IMG/VR virus record: IMGVR_UViG_3300043442_001143
Location: 1 to 30,311 of that record
From: a virus
Taxonomy: Duplodnaviria; Caudoviricetes
Reading direction: 5' to 3' (one strand)
Length of the DNA stretch: 30,311 nt
The notes beneath the pieces are model-generated. The model was not told the origin of the DNA, did not search any database, and saw only the letters and a list, made by a program, of their open reading frames with translations. Both the position numbers and the translations under genes were made by a program. Below are positions 1,784 through 20,823 of the stretch, piece after piece. Numbering within the stretch: position 1 is the stretch's first letter; each line of letters begins with the position of its first letter.

Positions 1784-2599
1784 ATGAATTATCTAAAACA
1801 TTATTGTAACCTCATAAGAAAGGCAGAAAACAGAACTCCTCCTGAAGGTTATACAGAAAAACATCATACATTTCCAAAAAGTATCTTTGGAAAAAATAAT
1901 AGAGTTGTTGTGCTTACGGCAAGAGAACATTATATAGCACACGCATTATTAGAGAGAATTTATATAAAAAGATATGGATTAGAAGATTGGAAATCTATTA
2001 AAATGAATAAAGCACATATTTTGATGTCTGCTGATAAGTATAGGAATGGAAGATATTGTAATTCTAGATTATTTGAAAGTGCTATTATAAGAAGTAAAAT
2101 TTTTTATAGAGGCAAAAATCATTTTAATTATGGTAAAAAACGACCAGATGCTTCGATCAGACTAAAAAGTGGAGAAAGTCACTTAAAAAATAAAGATGTT
2201 GTAGAAAAAAGAAATAAATCATTAAAAAAACTTGGTGAAAACCATCCATCTAAAAGACAATCACACCGAAATATGATGAGAAATATGTGGATAAATAATA
2301 ATCCAATGAAAAATCCAACAACACTTGAAAAAAGAAGTGGTAAAAATCATTACTTATTTAATGTAATTGGCGATAAACATCCTCTTTATGGTAGGGTTAG
2401 ACCAGAAAGTGAAAAGGAAAAAATTTCAAATTCAAAATGTAAAAATGATTATAAAATTGTAAATCCTAGTGGAGAAATTTTTTATACTAAAAATTTAACA
2501 AAATTTTGTAAAGAACATAATTTACATCCAAGTGCGATGTCTAATGTTGTAAATAAAAAAGCAAAACACCATAAAAAGTGGAAGGTTGAAAAAATTTAA
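1784..2599 (+). CDS. Free-standing HNH homing endonuclease, MobE-like, with NUMOD3-type repeats and a C-terminal DNA-binding domain
   Basis: N-terminus MNYLKHY..YTEKHHTFPKS..LTAREHYIAHALL resembles T4 MobE/MobD. Lys-rich repeats GKNHFNYGK, GENHPSK, NNPMKNP. Very AT-rich and inserted among core genes. Confidence 0.85.
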   Translation: MNYLKHYCNLIRKAENRTPPEGYTEKHHTFPKSIFGKNNRVVVLTAREHYIAHALLERIYIKRYGLEDWKSIKMNKAHILMSADKYRNGRYCNSRLFESAIIRSKIFYRGKNHFNYGKKRPDASIRLKSGESHLKNKDVVEKRNKSLKKLGENHPSKRQSHRNMMRNMWINNNPMKNPTTLEKRSGKNHYLFNVIGDKHPLYGRVRPESEKEKISNSKCKNDYKIVNPSGEIFYTKNLTKFCKEHNLHPSAMSNVVNKKAKHHKKWKVEKI

Positions 2600-4166: not shown

Positions 4167-4814
4167 ATGAAACACTTTTATGTGTATTATTCCTATGAGG
4201 AATATGGTAGAGGATATATTGGAAAAAGAGAATGTAAATGTCTTCCAGAAGAGGATATAAAATATTTTGGAAGTTTTAAGGACAAGACTTTTAGACCAAC
4301 GCAGAAGATTATTTTAGAAACTTTTAATAGTGTTGAAGAAGCACTTGAAGCAGAATGTTTCCTTCACAATTTTTATGAAGTAGATAAAAATCCCCATTTT
4401 GCGAATAGGGCAAAACAAACTTCAAGAAAGTTTTATTATATTGTCCCCAGAGAATATATGGTGGGAGAAAATAACCCAGCAAAAAGACCGGAAGTTAGAA
4501 AAAAACTATCCGATACTGCTAAAACTAGAAGAGCATCTGAAGAAACTAAAAGAAAAATGAGTGAGGCACATAAAGGAAGAGTATCTCCAAAAGGAATGCT
4601 TGGTAAAAAACTTACAGAAGAGCAAAAACAAAAGATGAGAGATATAAAAGTTGCGAGAGATAATAAAACTTGGTTAATAAAAGATCCTGAGGGTAAAATA
4701 CATACTACAAATAATTTGAAATATTTTTGCAACTTAAATAATTTAACAGATTCGGCAATTCATCATGTAATTTCTGGGAAAAGAAATCACCATAAAGGAT
4801 GGACGAGGGCTTGA
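4167..4814 (+). CDS. Free-standing GIY-YIG-like homing endonuclease with NUMOD3 motif
   Basis: FYVYYSY..GYIGKR..YFGS..EALEAE..FAN fits a Seg-like GIY-YIG domain. NUMOD3-like SEETKRKMSEAHKG. C-terminal domain resembles that of 1784..2599. Confidence 0.85.
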   Translation: MKHFYVYYSYEEYGRGYIGKRECKCLPEEDIKYFGSFKDKTFRPTQKIILETFNSVEEALEAECFLHNFYEVDKNPHFANRAKQTSRKFYYIVPREYMVGENNPAKRPEVRKKLSDTAKTRRASEETKRKMSEAHKGRVSPKGMLGKKLTEEQKQKMRDIKVARDNKTWLIKDPEGKIHTTNNLKYFCNLNNLTDSAIHHVISGKRNHHKGWTRA

Positions 4815-4891: not shown

Positions 4892-5818
4892 ATGTCATTC
4901 GAAAATCTTAAAAAGCAATCTAAACTAGGCAATCTCACTGCCAAACTTGTCAAAGAGGTTGAAAAGATGAATACCTCTGGTGGAAGTGAAGATGATCGTC
5001 TATGGAAATTGAGTGTAGATAAAGCAAATAATGGTTATGCCGTGATTCGTTTTCTTCCTGCCCCTGAAGGAGAAGACCTGCCTTTTGTGAAAGTTTATAG
5101 TCACGCATTTCAAGGTCCTGGGGGGTGGATTCTGGATGGATGCCTCACCACTCTGAATCAAAAGTGCCCTGTTTGTGAGCACAACTCCACTCTGTGGAAT
5201 AATGGCACTGATGCTGGTAAAGAAGTTGCCCGTAAGCAGAAACGCAAACTGACTTATGTTTCTAACATCTATGTGGTGAAGGATCCTACCAATCCCGAAA
5301 ATGAAGGTAAAGTCTTCCTCTTCAAGTATGGTAAGAAAATCTTTGACAAACTCACTGCCGCAATGCAACCTGAGTTTGAAGATGAAGAAGCAATCGATCC
5401 GTTTGACTTCTGGCAGGGTGCCAACTTCAAACTGAAGGCAAAAAACGTTGCTGGTTATCGTAACTATGATTCCAGTGAGTTTGCTCGTCCTGATGCTCTG
5501 CTGGACGATGATGATGCTCTGGAAGCAATCTGGAAGAAGCAGTATTCTCTTGCCGAGTTTGTTTCTCCTGACCAATTCAAGACTTATGATGAGATGAAGG
5601 CACGTCTTCACTCTGTGCTTGGTTCTAAGGCATCTGTAAATCTTGATGAGGAAGTTGAGTCTGAGGAAGAGTATACTCGTGGTCCTGCTCCCTCTCTGGA
5701 CGATGATCTTCGTGAGGAATTGAATAGTCTTCAACCTACTCGTCGTGCTGCGGCACCTGTGGAGGATGATGAGGACGATGATGCGCTCAACTATTTCGCC
5801 CGCCTTGCCGAAGACTGA
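4892..5818 (+). CDS. gp32: Single-stranded DNA-binding protein gp32
   Basis: GYAVIRFLP, HAF..C..CPVC zinc site, NEGKVFLFKYGKKIFDK, NYDSSEF and an acidic C-terminal tail. Confidence 0.97.
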   Translation: MSFENLKKQSKLGNLTAKLVKEVEKMNTSGGSEDDRLWKLSVDKANNGYAVIRFLPAPEGEDLPFVKVYSHAFQGPGGWILDGCLTTLNQKCPVCEHNSTLWNNGTDAGKEVARKQKRKLTYVSNIYVVKDPTNPENEGKVFLFKYGKKIFDKLTAAMQPEFEDEEAIDPFDFWQGANFKLKAKNVAGYRNYDSSEFARPDALLDDDDALEAIWKKQYSLAEFVSPDQFKTYDEMKARLHSVLGSKASVNLDEEVESEEEYTRGPAPSLDDDLREELNSLQPTRRAAAPVEDDEDDDALNYFARLAED

Positions 5819-5832
5819 TTCTGTGCTATAAT
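5805..5832 (+). promoter_or_regulatory. Putative sigma70-type promoter with extended -10
   Basis: TTGCCG (5805-5810), 16-nt spacer, TGcTATAAT (TATAAT at 5827-5832). Confidence 0.5.
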
Positions 5833-5835
5833 ACT

Positions 5836-5861
5836 GGGGAGGCAAAGGTCTCCCCTTTTTT
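5836..5861 (+). terminator. Rho-independent terminator after gp32
   Basis: GGGGAGGC-AAAG-GTCTCCCC stem followed by TTTTTT. Confidence 0.8.
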
Positions 5862-6452
5862 ATGAAATCTGATTACTATATTGACCGAATCACAAAGAAG
5901 CAGGCAGAAGACCTTCTACTGACTTATCATTACCTTAAAGATTTTTCAAAGGGATATAAATCAGGAAAAAATTATGGTTTGTTTAAGAAGAATGAGTTTT
6001 CTCCCTTAAATATTGGAGGACCAGTAGGAGTTTGTATCTTTACTGGTTTGCCAGTGCCAGAAATCGCAAAAGGTGCCTTTGGACTCGAACGAAATGAACA
6101 ACAAGGACTCTTCGAACTATCAAGACTCTGTATTCATCCACAAACTCAACAGAGTGAGTATAATATCACTTCTTGGTTTGTTTCAAAAGCGATTAGACAG
6201 TTACGAAAGGATACTGAAGTTAAAGCAATCATCTCTTACGCTGATAGTGATTTTCATTCTGGCACAATCTATCGCGCTTGTAATTTTGCATACGCAGGTC
6301 TATCAGATGCAAAAAAAGATTTCTACTATTCAGACGGAACTAAGCACTCTCGTGGAAAAGTAAAAGGTGCCGAGGGAGAATGGAGAGAGCGATCCCGTAA
6401 GCACCGTTATGTGATGATATTTGATAAAAATCTAGAATTAAAATGGAATTGA
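5862..6452 (+). CDS. Mom-like (GNAT-fold) DNA modification protein
   Basis: HYL, ELSRLC, ISYAD and HSGTIYRACNFAYAG resemble the Mu Mom family signature. Confidence 0.75.
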   Translation: MKSDYYIDRITKKQAEDLLLTYHYLKDFSKGYKSGKNYGLFKKNEFSPLNIGGPVGVCIFTGLPVPEIAKGAFGLERNEQQGLFELSRLCIHPQTQQSEYNITSWFVSKAIRQLRKDTEVKAIISYADSDFHSGTIYRACNFAYAGLSDAKKDFYYSDGTKHSRGKVKGAEGEWRERSRKHRYVMIFDKNLELKWN

Positions 6453-7130
6453 AGCTCTAGTATTTTCAGTCTTAATTAGAGTATCGTTTACATATTGTGA
6501 TGACCTATCATAAATCATCGCTTTTCTTGTGTCATTAATAACTTGCTGTAGGTATCTTGGTTTTAATACATAGATACCTCTCTTATCATTATTCTTTCTC
6601 ACTTCATATTCATAATTACTCACACCTACAACTGGGTTTGAAATATAAGTTACATTTGATCCAAGTATCGTAGAATCATTCGTATAAACATTTCCATCAT
6701 CATAGTAAGAAACTTTAAAGTCAGCATCAACAACTTGACCTGCAGGAAGAATCAGTCTATCCTCCGAATCTCTGACTTCTTTAGTTTCATAATGATGAAT
6801 CGCATTCAAGTCGTCACCATAGATTGACTCTGCGTAATCGTATATTTGCTTATCAGAAAGTGGCCATTGGTCTCTCAGTCTTGTGATTCCTGCAGATACA
6901 ATCACAACCCAGTCATACTGAGTGCTACCATAAAGTTCTTGAGCAACTAACTCTGGTCTAGACCCATCTGGAATCTGATACTTATCAAAGACAGTGAAGA
7001 CATTCTGCAAGTCGTCACGAAGTTTAACTCTACGAAATAGATTCTTGACAATTAAATATTGGTCGGACGATTTTGAATCTGGTAAAAATGATTGATATTC
7101 TAAGTTTGGAAGTTCTCTGAAGTAAGTCAT
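6438..7130 (-). CDS. gp53: Baseplate wedge subunit gp53
   Basis: YF..LP..Y, RPELVAQELYGSTQYDWVV, QWPLS, HHYET and SNYEYE..N..KRGIYVLKP. Confidence 0.92.
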   Translation of the reverse strand: MTYFRELPNLEYQSFLPDSKSSDQYLIVKNLFRRVKLRDDLQNVFTVFDKYQIPDGSRPELVAQELYGSTQYDWVVIVSAGITRLRDQWPLSDKQIYDYAESIYGDDLNAIHHYETKEVRDSEDRLILPAGQVVDADFKVSYYDDGNVYTNDSTILGSNVTYISNPVVGVSNYEYEVRKNNDKRGIYVLKPRYLQQVINDTRKAMIYDRSSQYVNDTLIKTENTRASIPF

Positions 7131-8907: not shown

Positions 8908-9747
8908 GTGGCAACACCCCGCAGAATATCTGATATTAAGCCATTGATGACCAATCTGGCACAAACTTCTCACTATGAGGTGAAGTTTGGCACTCTTCCT
9001 CCACGTTTGATGTCATATCTGGCTAGAAGAGGAATTGATTCAAGATTCATTGCGGAGAGTGCAGGTCTTCTTTGTTACTCTGCCGTTCTTCCAACAACTA
9101 CATTAGGATCTTTTACGATTGATGGAAATTTTATGGGAATTCAAGAAAAGTTTGCAAATTCTAGAATCTATTCTGAAATAACACTTGATTTTTATATTGA
9201 TAGTAACTATCAAATGCTTAATTTCTTAGAATGTTGGATGGAATTTATTGCAAGTGGGTCTTTTAATAATCAAGTTCTGCCTGGAGAGAATGCTCCAATT
9301 AACCAAAATCAAGATGGATATTTTGTAAGAATGCAATATCCCTCATATTATAAAGCAAATTCAGTAAGAATTGTCAAGTTTGATAGAGACTATCGGAGAG
9401 AGATTGAATATAACTTTAGAGGACTATTTCCTTTGAATATGAGCTCCATTCCTGTTTCTTATGTTTCTTCTGATATTTTGAAAGTGTCTGCATCATTCCA
9501 ATACGATCGTTATATTGCAGGAAGAACAAACACATTTAATCAGTTTATTTCTAGAGACAGTAATAATCAGAATCCACTCAATCCACTGACACTGCAAACT
9601 TCACCACAATCTGCAGAAAGTATTTTCAGAGCATCACAAGAGACTTATACTTTTGGAGTCAGTAATAGTTCAACACTTCAATCTGCGGCAGATTCTTTAT
9701 CTTCAAATCCGTTATCTTCTCAAGCAAACCCTGAAACTCTCTTCTAA
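8908..9747 (+). CDS. Tail-tube-fold protein (gp54/gp19-like baseplate tail tube initiator)
   Basis: LLC.SA.LP, ITLDFYID..FLECWMEFI, LFPLNMSSIPVSY and KVSASFQY match the tube-protein pattern. GTG start. Confidence 0.7.
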   Translation: MATPRRISDIKPLMTNLAQTSHYEVKFGTLPPRLMSYLARRGIDSRFIAESAGLLCYSAVLPTTTLGSFTIDGNFMGIQEKFANSRIYSEITLDFYIDSNYQMLNFLECWMEFIASGSFNNQVLPGENAPINQNQDGYFVRMQYPSYYKANSVRIVKFDRDYRREIEYNFRGLFPLNMSSIPVSYVSSDILKVSASFQYDRYIAGRTNTFNQFISRDSNNQNPLNPLTLQTSPQSAESIFRASQETYTFGVSNSSTLQSAADSLSSNPLSSQANPETLF

Positions 9748-9778: not shown

Positions 9779-10498
9779 ATGCCTTTACCTAAGATCTCTA
9801 CACCAACATATGAGTTGGAAATTCCTTCACTGAAAAAAACTATTAAGTATCGCCCATTTCTTGTGAAGGAAGAAAAAATTCTTATTATTGCAATGGAGAG
9901 TGAAGATCCAAAGCAAATCGCTGAAGCAGTTAAAACAGTAATCAGCAATTGTATCATCAGTCGTGGTATTAAAGTTGAGCAACTTGCAACTTTTGACATT
10001 GAATATTTGTTTCTGAATATTCGTGGAAAGTCTGTTGGTGAAGAAGTTGATGTCTTAATCACTTGCCCTGATGATGGCACAACTCAAGTTCCTATGAGCA
10101 TTAATCTTGATGATATTCAAGTTGAGTTTGATAAAAAGCATTCAAGAGATATTAAACTTGATGACAATCTTACTCTCAGAATGAGATATCCTTCTATGCA
10201 AGAGTTTGTGAAGAGTAACTTTGTTGTTGGTGCTGAAATTTCTGTAGATGATACTTTTGATATGATTATTTCTTGTATTGAGCAAATCTACAGTGAAGAA
10301 GAATCTTGGGCAGCAGCAGATTCAACCAAAAAAGAATTAAAAGAATTTCTAGAGCAGTTGACCTCGCAGCAGTTTAAGGACATTGAAAAATTCTTTGAGA
10401 CAATGCCAAAACTTTCTCATACACTTACAGTAACAAATCCAAACACGGGTGTTGAGAGTGAAGTCATTCTGGAGGGACTAACATCTTTTTTCGCCTAG
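9779..10498 (+). CDS. gp26: Baseplate hub subunit/assembly chaperone (gp26-like)
   Basis: MPLPKI..PTYEL.IPS..IKYRPFLVKEEKIL, FDIEYLFLNIRGKSVGE, FFETMPKL and ending EGLTSFF. Confidence 0.88.
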   Translation: MPLPKISTPTYELEIPSLKKTIKYRPFLVKEEKILIIAMESEDPKQIAEAVKTVISNCIISRGIKVEQLATFDIEYLFLNIRGKSVGEEVDVLITCPDDGTTQVPMSINLDDIQVEFDKKHSRDIKLDDNLTLRMRYPSMQEFVKSNFVVGAEISVDDTFDMIISCIEQIYSEEESWAAADSTKKELKEFLEQLTSQQFKDIEKFFETMPKLSHTLTVTNPNTGVESEVILEGLTSFFA

Positions 10499-10525
10499 CG
10501 ATGGTGCATGAGGATCTTGCATCAT
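10471..10525 (+). other. Candidate -1 programmed ribosomal frameshift cassette
   Basis: GGAGG (10471-10475), 10-nt spacer, heptamer T TTT TTC (10486-10492), 8-nt spacer, stem ATGGTGCA/TGCATCAT (10501-10525). The -1 frame is open into the next ORF. Confidence 0.6.
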
Positions 10526-10674
10526 ACTACAAAACAAATTTTGCATTGATTCAGCATCATAAATATTCATTAACAGAGTTGGAAAATATGATTCCATGGG
10601 AAAGGGAAGTTTACATCACTCTTCTCCAACAATATATTGAGGAAGAAAACCTGAAGAATCAATCGAATGGATAA
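10501..10674 (+). CDS. Small baseplate hub assembly protein (gp51-like); not in the ORF track
   Basis: Hand translation: MVHEDLASYYKTNFALIQHHKYSLTELENMIPWEREVYITLLQQYIEEENLKNQSNG (57 aa). It fills the gap between gp26 and the ORF at 10667. Confidence 0.85.
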   Translation: MVHEDLASYYKTNFALIQHHKYSLTELENMIPWEREVYITLLQQYIEEENLKNQSNG

Positions 10675-12292
10675 GGCAGAAGCTGGTTTAAGAGCACAAA
10701 CGGGTGAAAAACCTGGTGGTGGGTATTATACCAGCTCGGAAAGAATTACCTTACAAAAGTTTTCTCTAGGAAGAATCACCACGCTCCCAAGATCTGTTTT
10801 TGGTGGTCGTACAGTGGGAGGTGGTGGTGGAAATGCTGCGGGTGGAGGTGCTGGCGGCGGCGGAGCAGTTGCAGCAGGATCTGCGATTGTAGTAAGACCA
10901 CAAACAAGTTTAGTTGATAGAGCACAAACATTACAGATACAGACAAATGCAGGGTCAATTGGAAATCTTCAACAGAGTCTTGATGTAATTCGTGTACAAG
11001 TAACAGAATTAAATCAGGGTATTCAGAATACTGCAAAACAACTTCAAGCAGAAAGTGCTCTAGAGCAAAACCAACTTAAGCAAGAGCAAGAATCAGAAAG
11101 AAGATTAGCAGAGCGTAAAGTTAGACTTGGAAAAGAAAGTGAATTAGAGAAAAATATTCAAGCGGCATTAGCAAGACCACTTGCTAAAATTCAACAAACT
11201 GTGACAAGTTTGTTTGATAGAGTCATGGGTGCTTTGACAACATTATTCTTTGGGTGGCTTACAAATCAAGGAATTGAAACTCTAAAAGCATTTGCAGAGG
11301 GAGATACTAAAAAACTTGAAGAGATTAAGAATACTGTTATTAAGAATGTTTTATTTGCAATAGGTGGATTTGCTGCAGTTAATATTGGATTTGGTTTACT
11401 ACTGAGAACTATTGGTGGTTTAACACTCAAATTAGCAAGTCTTGCTACCAGAATTGCTTTAGCTCCTTTCAGACTAGGGGCAGCAGCATTAAGAGGAGGT
11501 ATGTCCGCCCTGAGAGGAATTGGAAGTAGAGTTACCGGTGCTGGAGGTGTTTTAGGTAAAACTGGTGGAGTGATGAGTAGATTTTTGGGTGGGGTTAAAA
11601 ATTTAGGAAAAGGTGCTCAAGGTGTATTACGAGGCACTGGAAATGTTGCTTCCAAACTTTTTGCACCCATAGCACTTGGGGTTGGAACTTATAGGATAGC
11701 ACAAGGAGATATTGTTGGTGGTTTATTATCCTATGGATCTGCAATTCCTGGTGTTGGTTTAGGTTTTGCAGGTTTAGACATTGCAAGAGAATTTGGACTT
11801 GGAAAAGGCACTTTTTTTGGCAAGCAAGAATCGCAACAACAAGCATCAACACCACCAGCAACACCACAACCACCAGCGGCAACACCACCAGCAACACCAC
11901 AACCACCAGCGTCAGTTGCACAACCACAAACTTCTGCAATGCCAACACCATCTGAAATGACATTTAGTGTTGACACTGCAAATATGTTACAGGGTCCGGC
12001 ACAAGCATTATCACAAGAAACAGCACCTTCTTATGGCACAATAAATGTTGAAGGATTACTTCAAGAAAAACCCCCTGCTGCAGATGTACAAGCACCACCA
12101 AAACCTGCTACTCCTGTAGGAACTCTTCCAGAAGCAAAACCAAACATCATAATGGCTGGTGGTGGAAGAGATAGAACTCAGACAATTGCTTCTCAACAAC
12201 AACCATTGACTGATGTGCCATTTATACCATCTGCAAATACTGATAATTTCTATGTGCTCTATTCACAACTCAACTACAATGTGGTGATGTAA
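10667..12292 (+). CDS. Tape-measure-like / baseplate hub virion protein
   Basis: Gln/Glu coiled-coil region, long Gly/Ala/Leu amphipathic and hydrophobic segments, Pro-rich C-terminus; follows the gp26/gp51-like pair. Confidence 0.55.
   Translation: MDKAEAGLRAQTGEKPGGGYYTSSERITLQKFSLGRITTLPRSVFGGRTVGGGGGNAAGGGAGGGGAVAAGSAIVVRPQTSLVDRAQTLQIQTNAGSIGNLQQSLDVIRVQVTELNQGIQNTAKQLQAESALEQNQLKQEQESERRLAERKVRLGKESELEKNIQAALARPLAKIQQTVTSLFDRVMGALTTLFFGWLTNQGIETLKAFAEGDTKKLEEIKNTVIKNVLFAIGGFAAVNIGFGLLLRTIGGLTLKLASLATRIALAPFRLGAAALRGGMSALRGIGSRVTGAGGVLGKTGGVMSRFLGGVKNLGKGAQGVLRGTGNVASKLFAPIALGVGTYRIAQGDIVGGLLSYGSAIPGVGLGFAGLDIAREFGLGKGTFFGKQESQQQASTPPATPQPPAATPPATPQPPASVAQPQTSAMPTPSEMTFSVDTANMLQGPAQALSQETAPSYGTINVEGLLQEKPPAADVQAPPKPATPVGTLPEAKPNIIMAGGGRDRTQTIASQQQPLTDVPFIPSANTDNFYVLYSQLNYNVVM
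11847..11911 (+). repeat. Coding tandem duplication (32 nt exact, period 33 nt; TPPATPQPPA x2)
   Basis: caacaccaccagcaacaccacaaccaccagcg at 11847-11878 and 11880-11911. Confidence 0.9.
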
Positions 12293-12293
12293 T

Positions 12294-14264
12294 ATGGCAG
12301 TATCAACACCAATCAGAAGAGTAATTCTTACAGCAAATGAATCTAAGAAAAAGATTTCTCAAGGTAGAGATGCAATCAAGTCCGTTGGGCAAGTTATTTT
12401 AAAAAGAACTAAAGTTAAAAGAGAAGCATTTGCACAAACAAATATCTTCAGAAAAAGAAGAGAAGAAAATGAAAAGAGACAAACTCTAGAGGATGAATTA
12501 GAAGCACCAAGAGTTGTTATGACACCGACAGGACCTCAACAGTTGATACAAGCAACTGGTGCTGGTGGATTTTTTAAGAGAATTTTAGGATTTATTGGTT
12601 ATCTTGCTGCAGGTTGGATAATGAATAATCTCCCAACCTGGATTGCAATGGGTGAAGAATTTATTGCAAGACTTCAGAGAGCAGGGGAGATTGTATCTGA
12701 ATTCTTTAATAATACGATTAAGTTATTCACTAATGTAGGTAATATTTTAGGAGCATTAGGACAAAACTTAATGCAGTTTGATTTCTTTGATACTTCAAAT
12801 CGTGTAAAAAATGCGATGGGCGAATTAAATGACACTATGGGAAATCTGACAGGGCAGATTGAAGAGGCATTTGATTTACTTACAACTCCACTTACAGAAG
12901 GTAAGTATAGTGGAGAAGAGATTCCTAAAACGGGAACACAACAAACTGATGAAGGTGCTTATACTGAACCACCTCCTTATAGTGGTAGTGGTGGGGGTAG
13001 TCCTGATTTTTGGACCTTAGCAGCAGTTACTTCTCTAGAAGATGGAGACCCTCAGGGAAGAGCTGATGTAGCACAATCAATCTATAATAGAGCAGCGTCT
13101 GGAGTTTTTGGATCATCTTCTATTAGAGCAATAATTCTATCTGGTAATGGAAAACAATATGAGCCAGTAGGTAGAGCTGTTAAAGAGTTTAATGCAATAC
13201 AAGATAGAGAAAGTGCTATAAAAGCAATTATGGTTGCAAATAAACTATCAAGAAAACAAGCAGAGAGAATGATAGATGATACGGTTTCTGCAATTACCAA
13301 TCCATCATTGCAAAAAAAAGCTGCGGAATTTGTTGAAAATCGTACAGATTTTTTAGGTGCAGGATTAACTCCTAATCGGTCAAGTTCTACAGAGTTAAGA
13401 AGGAGAAATCCAAGTGATAATATTTTTGGAAATTATGTTGGTCCCGCATCATATCAATATGGATTGAGAAGTCGGGGTAAAGCATCATCTCCCAATATTC
13501 AGTTATCTACAACTACAACGACACAAGCATTAACACCCAGAAGAGGTATAACTACAACTGTTCGCGATGAAGTTGATGTTGTTAGAAACACAAGTCCTTT
13601 AGCGGGATTAACACCAGGTCAAGGTTTTGGTGCTGCTAGAAGAGGTGGAAGACTACATAAAGGTATTGATATTGGCACTTACAATACTAGAGGATTTTAT
13701 GTATCTTTCAGACAGTCTGGAAAAGTAACCTATGCAAGAAATAATGGAGAAGGATATGGAAACTTAGTTATTATTAAATCTGGAAATACAGAATTTTATT
13801 TTGCACACCTTGCTCGCATAATGGTAAAAGAAGGGCAGAGTTATAATGGAGAAACAATAGGTGAAATAGGAAATACTGGAGGTGATTATTCTATTCACTT
13901 ACACTTTGAGGCAAGACCTAATGGCAATCCAGTCAATCCAAAACCATATTTAAATCTTCTTTCTATTGGTAGACAACTTACAGGAATCGCAGGAAAACCC
14001 ACAACAGTTGTCCCAGAATCACCTGCTCAACCATCACCAGCACAAATCGCAGCACCTGCACAACAAACAAATGCAGTACCATTTTCACTCACGCCTGAAA
14101 GATCTGGTCAAGATATTATCATTATAGACCAACCAAGACAACAACAAAACATTATTACTTCAGCATCGGGTGGTGGAGGACAAGGACCTTCTGCAATTAG
14201 TGATTTTGACTTGTTAAATAACTTTATCAAGAATAAACTTCTTCTGGATTTAGCGTACGTATAA
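12294..14264 (+). CDS. Tail-associated lysin: helical N-terminus, SleB-like cell wall hydrolase, M23 peptidase
   Basis: LAAVTSLE..QGRADVAQSIYNR..QYEP is SleB/Hydrolase_2-like. HKGIDIG, GYGNLVII, FAHL, GNTG and HLHFE are M23 zinc-peptidase motifs. Confidence 0.8.
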   Translation: MAVSTPIRRVILTANESKKKISQGRDAIKSVGQVILKRTKVKREAFAQTNIFRKRREENEKRQTLEDELEAPRVVMTPTGPQQLIQATGAGGFFKRILGFIGYLAAGWIMNNLPTWIAMGEEFIARLQRAGEIVSEFFNNTIKLFTNVGNILGALGQNLMQFDFFDTSNRVKNAMGELNDTMGNLTGQIEEAFDLLTTPLTEGKYSGEEIPKTGTQQTDEGAYTEPPPYSGSGGGSPDFWTLAAVTSLEDGDPQGRADVAQSIYNRAASGVFGSSSIRAIILSGNGKQYEPVGRAVKEFNAIQDRESAIKAIMVANKLSRKQAERMIDDTVSAITNPSLQKKAAEFVENRTDFLGAGLTPNRSSSTELRRRNPSDNIFGNYVGPASYQYGLRSRGKASSPNIQLSTTTTTQALTPRRGITTTVRDEVDVVRNTSPLAGLTPGQGFGAARRGGRLHKGIDIGTYNTRGFYVSFRQSGKVTYARNNGEGYGNLVIIKSGNTEFYFAHLARIMVKEGQSYNGETIGEIGNTGGDYSIHLHFEARPNGNPVNPKPYLNLLSIGRQLTGIAGKPTTVVPESPAQPSPAQIAAPAQQTNAVPFSLTPERSGQDIIIIDQPRQQQNIITSASGGGGQGPSAISDFDLLNNFIKNKLLLDLAYV

Positions 14265-20069: not shown

Positions 20070-20085
20070 TATTCTGAGTTTTTGT

Positions 20086-20157
20086 GGGAGCATAGCTTAA
20101 TGGTTAGAGCGGGCACCTTATAAGTGCTTAGCGCGGGTTCAACTCCCGCTGTTCCCA
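20086..20157 (+). tRNA. trnI: tRNA-Ile (anticodon UAU)
   Basis: Acceptor GGGAGCA/TGTTCCC; anticodon arm GGCAC-CTTATAA-GTGCT; T arm GCGGG-TTCAACT-CCCGC; no encoded CCA. Confidence 0.9.
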
Positions 20158-20173
20158 TTACATACTCTTATTG

Positions 20174-20181
20174 TATAAATA
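20174..20181 (+). promoter_or_regulatory. T4-type late promoter for the HNH gene
   Basis: Exact TATAAATA about 30 nt before ATG 20210. Confidence 0.65.
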
Positions 20182-20209
20182 GGTGTATGTATATTTTCAT
20201 AACACCATA

Positions 20210-20641
20210 ATGTATTCTACTATTACTAATTGTCAAGGTTGTGGATGCGACATTCTAAATCAAAGAATGACAAAGGGGCGACTAAAAAAATGGTGTAGTA
20301 ATTCTTGTAGACAAAAATGGCGTTATAAAAACGATAAAAACATTATTGATAGAAACACTTACACTGAACAAAAGGCAAGGGGGTATTCCAATAAATGGAA
20401 AGCCCTTCAATATAAGGGTGGTAAATGTCAATCTTGTGGAGAAAGTAGACCAGCAACTTTGTGTTTTCATCATAGAGATCCATCTGAAAAATCATTTAAT
20501 CTTGATGGAAGAACCTTTGCTAATAGAAAGTGGGAATTTGTTAAGGAGGAAGTTAATAAATGCGACCTTCTTTGCCATAACTGCCATCATATGCTACACT
20601 ATGGTGATAGTTGGGAAGAATTTCTAAGCGAGCAGGTTTAG
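20210..20641 (+). CDS. HNH endonuclease with N-terminal zinc finger, inside the tRNA cluster
   Basis: CQGCG..WCSNSC, then YKGGKCQSCG..LCFHHRDPSEK..EVNKCDLLCHNCH. ATG 20210 preferred to GTG 20183, which is too close to the late promoter. Confidence 0.85.
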   Translation: MYSTITNCQGCGCDILNQRMTKGRLKKWCSNSCRQKWRYKNDKNIIDRNTYTEQKARGYSNKWKALQYKGGKCQSCGESRPATLCFHHRDPSEKSFNLDGRTFANRKWEFVKEEVNKCDLLCHNCHHMLHYGDSWEEFLSEQV

Positions 20642-20706
20642 CAATCTGGTAGAATGCTCGGAACTCATAATTCCGCGAAGGATGGGTTCGATTCCCTCAA
20701 CCTGCA
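20632..20706 (+). tRNA. tRNA with CAU anticodon (elongator Met, or Ile2 if lysidinylated)
   Basis: Acceptor GCAGGTT/AACCTGC; anticodon arm CGGAA-CTCATAA-TTCCG; T loop TTCGATT with a bulged T stem (GATGGG/CCCTC). Confidence 0.82.
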
Positions 20707-20707
20707 C

Positions 20708-20741
20708 TTGACCATAAAGACTCTTTGAGTTATAATGGTCA
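20708..20741 (+). promoter_or_regulatory. Sigma70-type promoter for tRNA-Leu embedded in an inverted repeat
   Basis: TTGACC (20708-20713), 17-nt spacer, TATAAT (20731-20736); flanking TGACCAT/ATGGTCA palindrome. Confidence 0.7.
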
Positions 20742-20748
20742 CATACAC

Positions 20749-20823
20749 GGGCGTGTATTCCAACCAGGCAGAGAAAATCGACTTAAAATCGATCCAGTGT
20801 GGGTTCGAATCCCACCACGCCTA
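20749..20823 (+). tRNA. trnL: tRNA-Leu (anticodon UAA), short variable loop
   Basis: Acceptor GGGCGTG/CACGCCT; anticodon arm ATCGA-CTTAAAA-TCGAT; T arm GTGGG-TTCGAAT-CCCAC. Confidence 0.88.

What the first reader, a model, noticed from the sequence alone, without database searches (positions are those of the whole stretch)
10471..10674. Candidate -1 ribosomal frameshift fusing gp26 to a downstream 57-aa ORF, like a G/GT tail-chaperone switch in a T4-like phage
Seen: gp26 ends ACA TCT TTT TTC GCC TAG, containing the X XXY YYZ heptamer T TTT TTC (10486-10492) in the correct phase. The -1 frame reads TTT TTT CGC CTA GCG ATG straight into ORF 10501-10674. GGAGG lies 10 nt 5' of the heptamer, too far (about 25 nt) from ATG 10501 to be its RBS. 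An 8-bp stem (ATGGTGCA/TGCATCAT, one G-U) starts 8 nt 3' of the heptamer and buries that ATG. Established: an internal SD about 10 nt upstream plus a 3' hairpin stimulate -1 shifts in E. coli dnaX and IS3-family elements, and lambda-type G/GT tail assembly chaperones are made by a frameshift just upstream of the tape measure gene. Inference: the 'gp26' and 'gp51-like' ORFs are one frameshifting locus giving 239-aa and ~298-aa (..TSFFRLAMVHED..) products ahead of tape-measure-like genes. I do not recall this being described for T4-like cyanophages, but cannot confirm novelty.
Basis: partly seen in the sequence, partly recalled or inferred. Interest (0 to 1): 0.88.

Follow-up and report, generated by a model that had tools for sequence, protein, structure and literature searches.

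The report
Frameshift joins cyanophage gp26 and gp51
One tail-assembly gene of this T4-like phage likely makes both a 239-residue and a 298-residue chaperone, because some ribosomes would slip back one base on a strongly conserved TTTTTTC run; this is the usual two-form tail-chaperone trick of long-tailed phages and appears to have been reported for T4-like phages in 2022, so it is a good example rather than a discovery.

Summary
Observation confirmed: in-phase T TTT TTC (10486-10492), open -1 frame into 10501-10674, GGAGG 10 nt upstream, 8-bp stem 8 nt downstream. Of 351 gp26 loci, 336 carry the gp51-like domain in the -1 frame, 1 in frame, and 14 are truncated or lack a detected domain. All 336 keep T TTT TTY (207 of 207 after de-replication, 95 expected), whereas 103 of 207 have no start codon. 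A T4-type phage encodes short and long forms as two genes. The N-domain's three best fold matches are tail assembly chaperones (Z 7.2-7.7). The stem covaries, but only in the 72 ATG-bearing lineages; the SD-like element is enriched, not universal. Frameshifting itself was not measured, and the downstream genes were not confirmed as tape measures. Not new: Vladimirov, Gautam and Davidson (Virology 2022; seen only through citing papers) are cited for -1 polyT sites in T4-like chaperone genes, and this scan reported the same feature on at least seven other windows. Verdict: real, probably functional, known kind, an annotation gap.

The parts
9779..10498 (+). gp26-type gene, short form (G / TAC-N), 239 aa
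   Evidence: PF12322 E 1e-75; phrog_150 positions 5-232 of 282; residues about 1-95 of a homologue's model match tail assembly chaperone folds 3FGX, 2OB9, 3KLU
10471..10475 (+). GGAGG, SD-like element 10 nt 5' of the heptamer; candidate frameshift stimulator
   Evidence: Glu codon here is GAG in 116 of 148 versus 29% background; full GGAGG in 60 of 207, weaker core in 85, none in 62
10486..10492 (+). slippery heptamer T TTT TTC (tandem Phe codons)
   Evidence: 336 of 336 -1-frame loci keep T TTT TTY; internal Phe-Phe pairs of the same gene take this form in 7 of 233
10496..10498 (+). TAG stop of the short form
   Evidence: its distance from the heptamer varies among homologues (0, 1, 2, 3 or 8 codons) while heptamer-to-C-domain spacing does not
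10501..10525 (+). 8-bp stem-loop (10501-10508 with 10518-10525), 8 nt 3' of the heptamer, holding ATG 10501; candidate stimulator
   Evidence: 88.4% of cells paired, 42 two-sided changes, 0 of 500 shuffles as high in 72 ATG-type loci; synonymous-shuffle median z -4.5 in these 72, -1.25 in the other 135
10486..10674 (+). -1 frame extension (T / TAC-C), annotated elsewhere as 'gp51'; gives the predicted 298-aa long form
   Evidence: phrog_634 E 7e-29 and phrog_150 positions 231-278; three to four helices in the model of a natural in-frame fusion
10667..12292 (+). 541-aa gene directly downstream; tape-measure candidate by position only
   Evidence: only PHROGs of unknown function; unnamed Atlas clusters
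12294..14264 (+). 656-aa gene with cell-wall hydrolase and M23 peptidase domains; tape-measure candidate by position only
   Evidence: PF01551, PF07486; tape-measure PHROG hits cover only the peptidase part

Best explanation
gp26 and the 'gp51' ORF are likely one tail assembly chaperone gene that would give a major 239-aa protein and, by a predicted programmed -1 ribosomal frameshift on U UUU UUC, a minor 298-aa protein with an added helical C-domain. Shown: heptamer, phase, open frame and their conservation; homology of both parts to a single full-length protein of T4-type phages; chaperone-like fold of the N-domain in a predicted model. Inferred: two tRNA-Phe re-pair on UUU UUU, helped in this lineage by the upstream GGAGG pairing with 16S rRNA and by the 3' stem-loop; by analogy with lambda gpG/gpGT the short form would coat the tape-measure protein and the long form would link it to the tail tube protein. 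The shift rate and the binding partners are untested.
For: 336 of 351 loci have the C-domain in the -1 frame, none in +1. T TTT TTY in 336 of 336; 207 of 207 at <90% identity (95.1 expected from codon usage) and 78 of 78 at <70% (35.0 expected), down to 25% identity; internal Phe-Phe pairs are slippery in 7 of 233. No ATG/GTG/TTG ahead of the C-domain in 103 of 207; the ATG position is a Leu codon in 133 of 207; no SD-like core 4-14 nt before the ATG in 72 of 72. Heptamer-to-domain spacing identical in 336 of 336 while the stop moves. A Tequatrovirus record has a 208-aa gene covering phrog_150 14-235 and a 250-aa gene covering 13-281, and its short gene ends on non-slippery codons. Top three of 48,161 folds are chaperones. 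H_HH.U_UU.Y motifs are among the most efficient in E. coli (PMC4066793).
Against: No direct measurement of shifting. Homologues are related, so the codon-usage probabilities overstate significance. In this phage ATG 10501 lies 2 nt after the stop, and in YB07, PVA23, D494 and S-CRM01 stop and ATG overlap or nearly so, which would allow coupled initiation. Vibrio phage D494 keeps only a T TTC tetramer. SD-like core absent in 62 of 207, and one other Glu column is also GAG-rich (69%). The hairpin is weak or absent in 135 of 207 and the RNAalifold consensus keeps only 3 pairs even in the ATG group. Fold Z-scores are under 8 and Foldseek found nothing in the PDB. A T4 review notes genetic evidence that gp26 is in the hub (PMC3004832), unlike lambda gpG.
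Confidence: 0.9

Rival explanations
1. The small ORF is a separate 57-aa protein made by translational coupling or re-initiation at ATG 10501, with no fusion.
For: ATG sits 2 nt after the stop; 90 of 207 de-replicated homologues have an ATG near the start of the domain; stop-start overlaps in several distant phages; GenBank records annotate two genes.
Against: 103 of 207 have no start codon; no SD-like core before the ATG in 72 of 72; the ATG lies inside a covarying stem; does not explain 336 of 336 heptamers. Some free T product besides the fusion is not excluded in this phage.
Confidence: 0.05
2. The fusion is made by RNA-polymerase slippage on the T run (an extra U in some transcripts), not by the ribosome.
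For: The site is a homopolymer run; T7 runs are discussed as transcription slippage sites (PMC4066793).
Against: The run is only 6 T in 182 of 207, 7 in 10 and 8 in 15, short for polymerase slippage (recalled threshold about 8-9); it is always in tandem-Phe phase; the SD-like and stem elements sit at ribosomal spacings.
Confidence: 0.04
3. The codons are conserved only through the protein motif or chance, and the small ORF is a split remnant.
For: Phe-Phe is invariant in the protein; TTT is the commoner Phe codon (73%).
Against: The second Phe is TTC in 182 of 207 against 27% background, the codon before ends in T in 207 of 207 across seven amino-acid codons, and other conserved Phe columns reach 42-92% TTT; the C-domain is conserved and open in 336 loci.
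Confidence: 0.01

Closest known systems
[quoted passage not shown]
   Same: Same gene family and position; cited for polyT -1 slippery sites in TAC-N genes of T4-like phages and for some T4-like phages carrying separate short and fused long genes. My recollection of the abstract, from no call, is that it names genes 26 and 51.
   Different: I could not see whether cyanophages, the internal SD-like element or the 3' hairpin are treated there.
Lambda gpG/gpGT and the conserved G-T frameshift of long-tailed phages (PMC5009743, passages)
   Same: Short and long product from one gene by a -1 shift near its 3' end; N-domain fold like HK97 gp13.
   Different: gp26 is 239 aa and only residues about 1-95 match the chaperone fold; tandem-Phe heptamer instead of lambda's tRNA-Lys site; the 2016 review still lists T4 as the exception.
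T4 gp26 and gp51 hub assembly chaperones (PMC3004832, passages)
   Same: Same PHROG; the T4-type long gene aligns over the whole natural fusion (21% over 269 columns, E 1e-4 for the single comparison).
   Different: T4-type phages use two divergent genes on opposite strands with no slippery site.
-1 frameshift at GTTTTT in TAC genes of Vandenendeviridae and Andersonviridae (PMC12846349, passages)
   Same: PolyT slippery site at the end of TAC-N, routinely mis-annotated as a separate hypothetical gene.
   Different: Other phage families, other motif.

Membership tests
G/GT-type tail assembly chaperone locus | Two overlapping ORFs, second in the -1 frame, joined by a conserved slippery site near the end of the first | tested here: met
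G/GT-type tail assembly chaperone locus | N-terminal part has the TAC fold (HK97 gp13 type) | tested here: met
   Top three of 48,161 chains are 3FGX (Z 7.7, rmsd 3.7, 86 aligned), 2OB9 (7.7, 3.7, 81), 3KLU (7.2, 4.0, 86); next 5.3; all three called TACs in PMC9603447. Moderate Z; model is of homologue L007.
G/GT-type tail assembly chaperone locus | Lies between tail tube gene and tape measure gene | tested here: inconclusive
   Upstream gene 8908-9747 is tail-tube family. Downstream window genes are not identified as tape measures; downstream genes of PVA23, phiN3 and S-PM2 give partial tape-measure PHROG hits, 3 of 8 tested.
G/GT-type tail assembly chaperone locus | Both products made, long form a few percent of the short | not testable with these tools
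   needs reporter, MS or ribosome profiling
G/GT-type tail assembly chaperone locus | Short form oligomerises and binds tape measure; long form binds tube protein; neither stays in the virion | not tested
   no complex prediction obtained
Bacterial -1 PRF signal (dnaX / IS3 type) | X XXZ ZZN heptamer of an efficient class | tested here: met
   U_UU.U_UU.C falls in H_HH.U_UU.Y, listed among the most efficient in E. coli (PMC4066793)
Bacterial -1 PRF signal (dnaX / IS3 type) | Internal SD-like element about 10 nt upstream | tested here: inconclusive
   Present here; GAG enriched 116 of 148 versus 29%, but absent in 62 of 207 and overlapping the conserved L-E-G motif
Bacterial -1 PRF signal (dnaX / IS3 type) | Stem-loop 5-9 nt downstream | tested here: met
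   For the 72 ATG-type lineages that include this phage; not supported in the other 135. Stimulation itself untested.
T4-like gp26/gp51 family (PF12322, phrog_150) | Profile match over the family length | tested here: met

The most novel reading that the evidence does not exclude
The frameshift is published in outline, but its control elements are not: in this cyanophage clade a synonymously selected internal SD and a covarying stem-loop that also hides the ATG set the short-to-long chaperone ratio, and other lineages replaced the stem by a different conserved CTC-rich tract, giving a natural series for how chaperone stoichiometry is tuned on the way to T4's two-gene solution.
Probability: 0.35. 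Interest if true: 0.45.

Novelty: new member of a known kind. Interest (0 to 1): 0.27.

Why it matters
It corrects an annotation: none of the 13 GenBank records fetched joins the two frames, three leave the C-domain unannotated and two start it at a later ATG. It ties T4's poorly understood gp26/gp51 pair to the general tail-chaperone mechanism, and gives a very abundant, strictly conserved natural -1 site with candidate stimulators that a simple reporter can test. The concept appears to be published, so the gain is confirmation, breadth and detail of the signal.

Tried and rejected
Single-sequence folding against dinucleotide shuffles: not significant. RNAalifold over all 207, or over the 135 non-ATG loci: no consensus structure. 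Pairing of the upstream GAGGG with the downstream pyrimidine tract in non-ATG lineages: native -7.29 versus permuted -7.06 +/- 0.15 kcal/mol, no clear covariation. Sequence searches of the PDB with gp26 and with a 74-sequence profile: nothing under E 0.5. Foldseek PDB: none at E <= 0.001; BFVD returns gp26/gp51-type proteins. Expression: no RNA holder listed. L007 as proof of a natural fusion: kept only as a lead, since a 2-nt loss at a T run could be a sequencing error; its 236-kb record has one phrog_150 match. Homo-oligomer prediction was not obtained, so oligomerisation is open. The 2022 paper could not be read; searches returned no paper that, by title, abstract start or the passages read, reports an experimental test of this frameshift in a T4-like phage; subscription journals and supplements were not seen.

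Full report
Context. The window is a 30.3-kb viral fragment with T4-like replication and tail genes. The best GenBank match to gp26 is Synechococcus phage S-SRM01 at 80%, so a cyanophage of the Kyanoviridae type is inferred; the best-matching runs are freshwater metagenomes.

Observation. The products would be 239 and 298 aa. Alone this is weak: 32 of 8719 codon boundaries in 23 ORFs of the window carry such heptamers and the local fold has z -0.52. Contigs of other runs cross the site without indels.

Protein families. gp26 matches phrog_150 positions 5-232 of 282; the small ORF matches phrog_634 and positions 239-278 of the same phrog_150. In a Tequatrovirus record a 208-aa gene covers 14-235 and a 250-aa gene covers 13-281; they lie on opposite strands and the short one ends GAG TTC TTT, not slippery. 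The labels gp26 and gp51 for these two are mine, from position and recall. So T4-type phages encode short and long forms separately.

Conservation. I gathered 350 loci (337 IMG/VR; 13 GenBank) plus the window. Of 351, 336 have the C-domain in the -1 frame, 1 in frame (L007), none in +1; 5 are cut within gp26, 4 are cut downstream and 5 gave no domain hit. Of these 5, YB07, SH-Ab 15599 and L348 still have T TTT TTY, D494 has only T TTC, and one is the T4-type gp26. The counts below use the 336. All 336 have T TTT TTY (301 C, 35 T). After de-replication it is 207 of 207 at <90% identity (95.1 expected from the gene's codon usage given the amino acids) and 78 of 78 at <70% (35.0 expected), with identity to the window down to 25%. 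Internal Phe-Phe pairs of the same gene are in slippery form in 7 of 233. The loci are related, so the formal probabilities are not to be taken at face value. The ATG is dispensable: 103 of 207 have no ATG, GTG or TTG ahead of the domain, 90 have ATG and 14 GTG or TTG; at the window's ATG position 133 have Leu and 72 Met. The heptamer-to-domain distance, extrapolated from the HMM match, is the same in 336 of 336 while the stop lies 0, 1, 2, 3 or 8 codons after the heptamer (38, 271, 2, 3, 22). The +1 frame is closed in 207 of 207 and the T run is 6 long in 182 of 207.

Stimulators. The Glu codon of L-E-G is GAG in 116 of 148 against 29% background, which favours selection for an SD-like core; but one other Glu column reaches 69%, and 62 of 207 have no core. 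One pair switches among U-A (30), G-C (24), G-U (6) and A-U (2), interleaved on a quick tree, with at least 4-5 changes forced by well-supported branches. Against synonymous resampling of the -1 frame the median z is -4.5 (control region -0.17) and 20 of 1000 resamples fold as well as the window. In run X10 the variants 10505 T>C and 10521 A>G, partners of one pair, each occur in 5 contigs (not shown to be the same contigs). Against: RNAalifold keeps only 3 pairs in this group, and the 135 other lineages give median z -1.25 and no consensus.

Fold. An AlphaFold2 model of the natural in-frame ORF of L007 (297 aa; not the window's own product) has pLDDT 90.8, a less certain junction and a helical C-domain. 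The three best of 48,161 chains are 3FGX, 2OB9 (HK97 tail assembly chaperone) and 3KLU, Z 7.7, 7.7 and 7.2 over residues about 1-95, next hit 5.3; PMC9603447 calls all three tail assembly chaperones (passages). Z under 8 is moderate; sequence and Foldseek searches of the PDB found nothing. L007 itself may be a real fusion or an error.

Tape measure. The upstream gene is tail-tube family. The two downstream genes were not identified as tape measures; 3 of 8 downstream genes of relatives give partial tape-measure hits.

Mechanism. Shown: the sequence anatomy, its conservation and the family relations. Inferred: tandem slippage of two tRNA-Phe on U UUU UUC, a class listed among the most efficient in E. 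coli (PMC4066793, passages), aided by SD pairing and the stem; short form on the tape measure and long form bridging to the tube, as described for lambda at about 30:1 (PMC5009743, passages). Confidence 0.9. Coupled initiation at the ATG may add some free small protein here but cannot explain the lineages without a start codon.

Prior knowledge. PMC5009743 (2016) says G-T frameshifting is conserved except in T4. PMC3004832 lists gp26 and gp51 as hub assembly chaperones and notes evidence that gp26 is in the hub (passages). Vladimirov, Gautam and Davidson 2022 is not held; I saw its title in reference lists, a passage of PMC12846349 citing it for polyT -1 signals in TAC-N genes of T4-like phages, and one of PMC10885494 citing it for separate short and fused long genes in some T4-like phages. 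That it names genes 26 and 51 and finds the shift in several T4-like groups is my recollection. Its text and supplements may already cover cyanophages and the stimulators. Seven earlier notes of this scan describe the same feature in other genomes; they agree with, and are not evidence for, the tests above.

Verdict. Real and probably functional, a member of a known kind, still missing from annotations. Interest 0.27.

Noticed in passing
non-ATG lineages, e.g. L094, L176, L181, heptamer +13 to +20: The Leu codon at the ATG position is CTC in 86 of 135 against 4.5% background; the pyrimidine tract is complementary to the upstream GAGGG but shows no clear covariation. A second, unexplained 3' element.
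   Followed up: partly
L007:3001-3894: In-frame gp26-gp51 fusion (2 nt shorter at the T run) in a 236-kb record with no second copy; real loss of the short form or an error. A downstream gene also looks split (5130-6296 and 6275-6712).
   Followed up: partly
L086:3711-3896 (Vibrio phage D494): Only a T TTC tetramer and a stop-start overlap; the record annotates a small ORF in another frame. Possible shift to coupled initiation.
   Followed up: no
L175, L178, L185, L186, L195 and others: 22 of 336 loci read 8 codons past the heptamer before stopping, so both frames overlap for 24 nt.
   Followed up: partly
window 20085-20823: tRNA-Ile(TAT), tRNA-Met(CAT) and tRNA-Leu(TAA) genes with an HNH endonuclease ORF (20183-20641) between the first two.
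   Followed up: no
window 1784-2599, 4167-4814, 5862-6452: Two further homing-endonuclease-type ORFs and a Mom-like ORF among the replication genes.
   Followed up: no
window 10667-14264: Two long genes at the tape-measure position, the second with cell-wall hydrolase and M23 domains; the genes at this position differ widely among relatives.
   Followed up: partly
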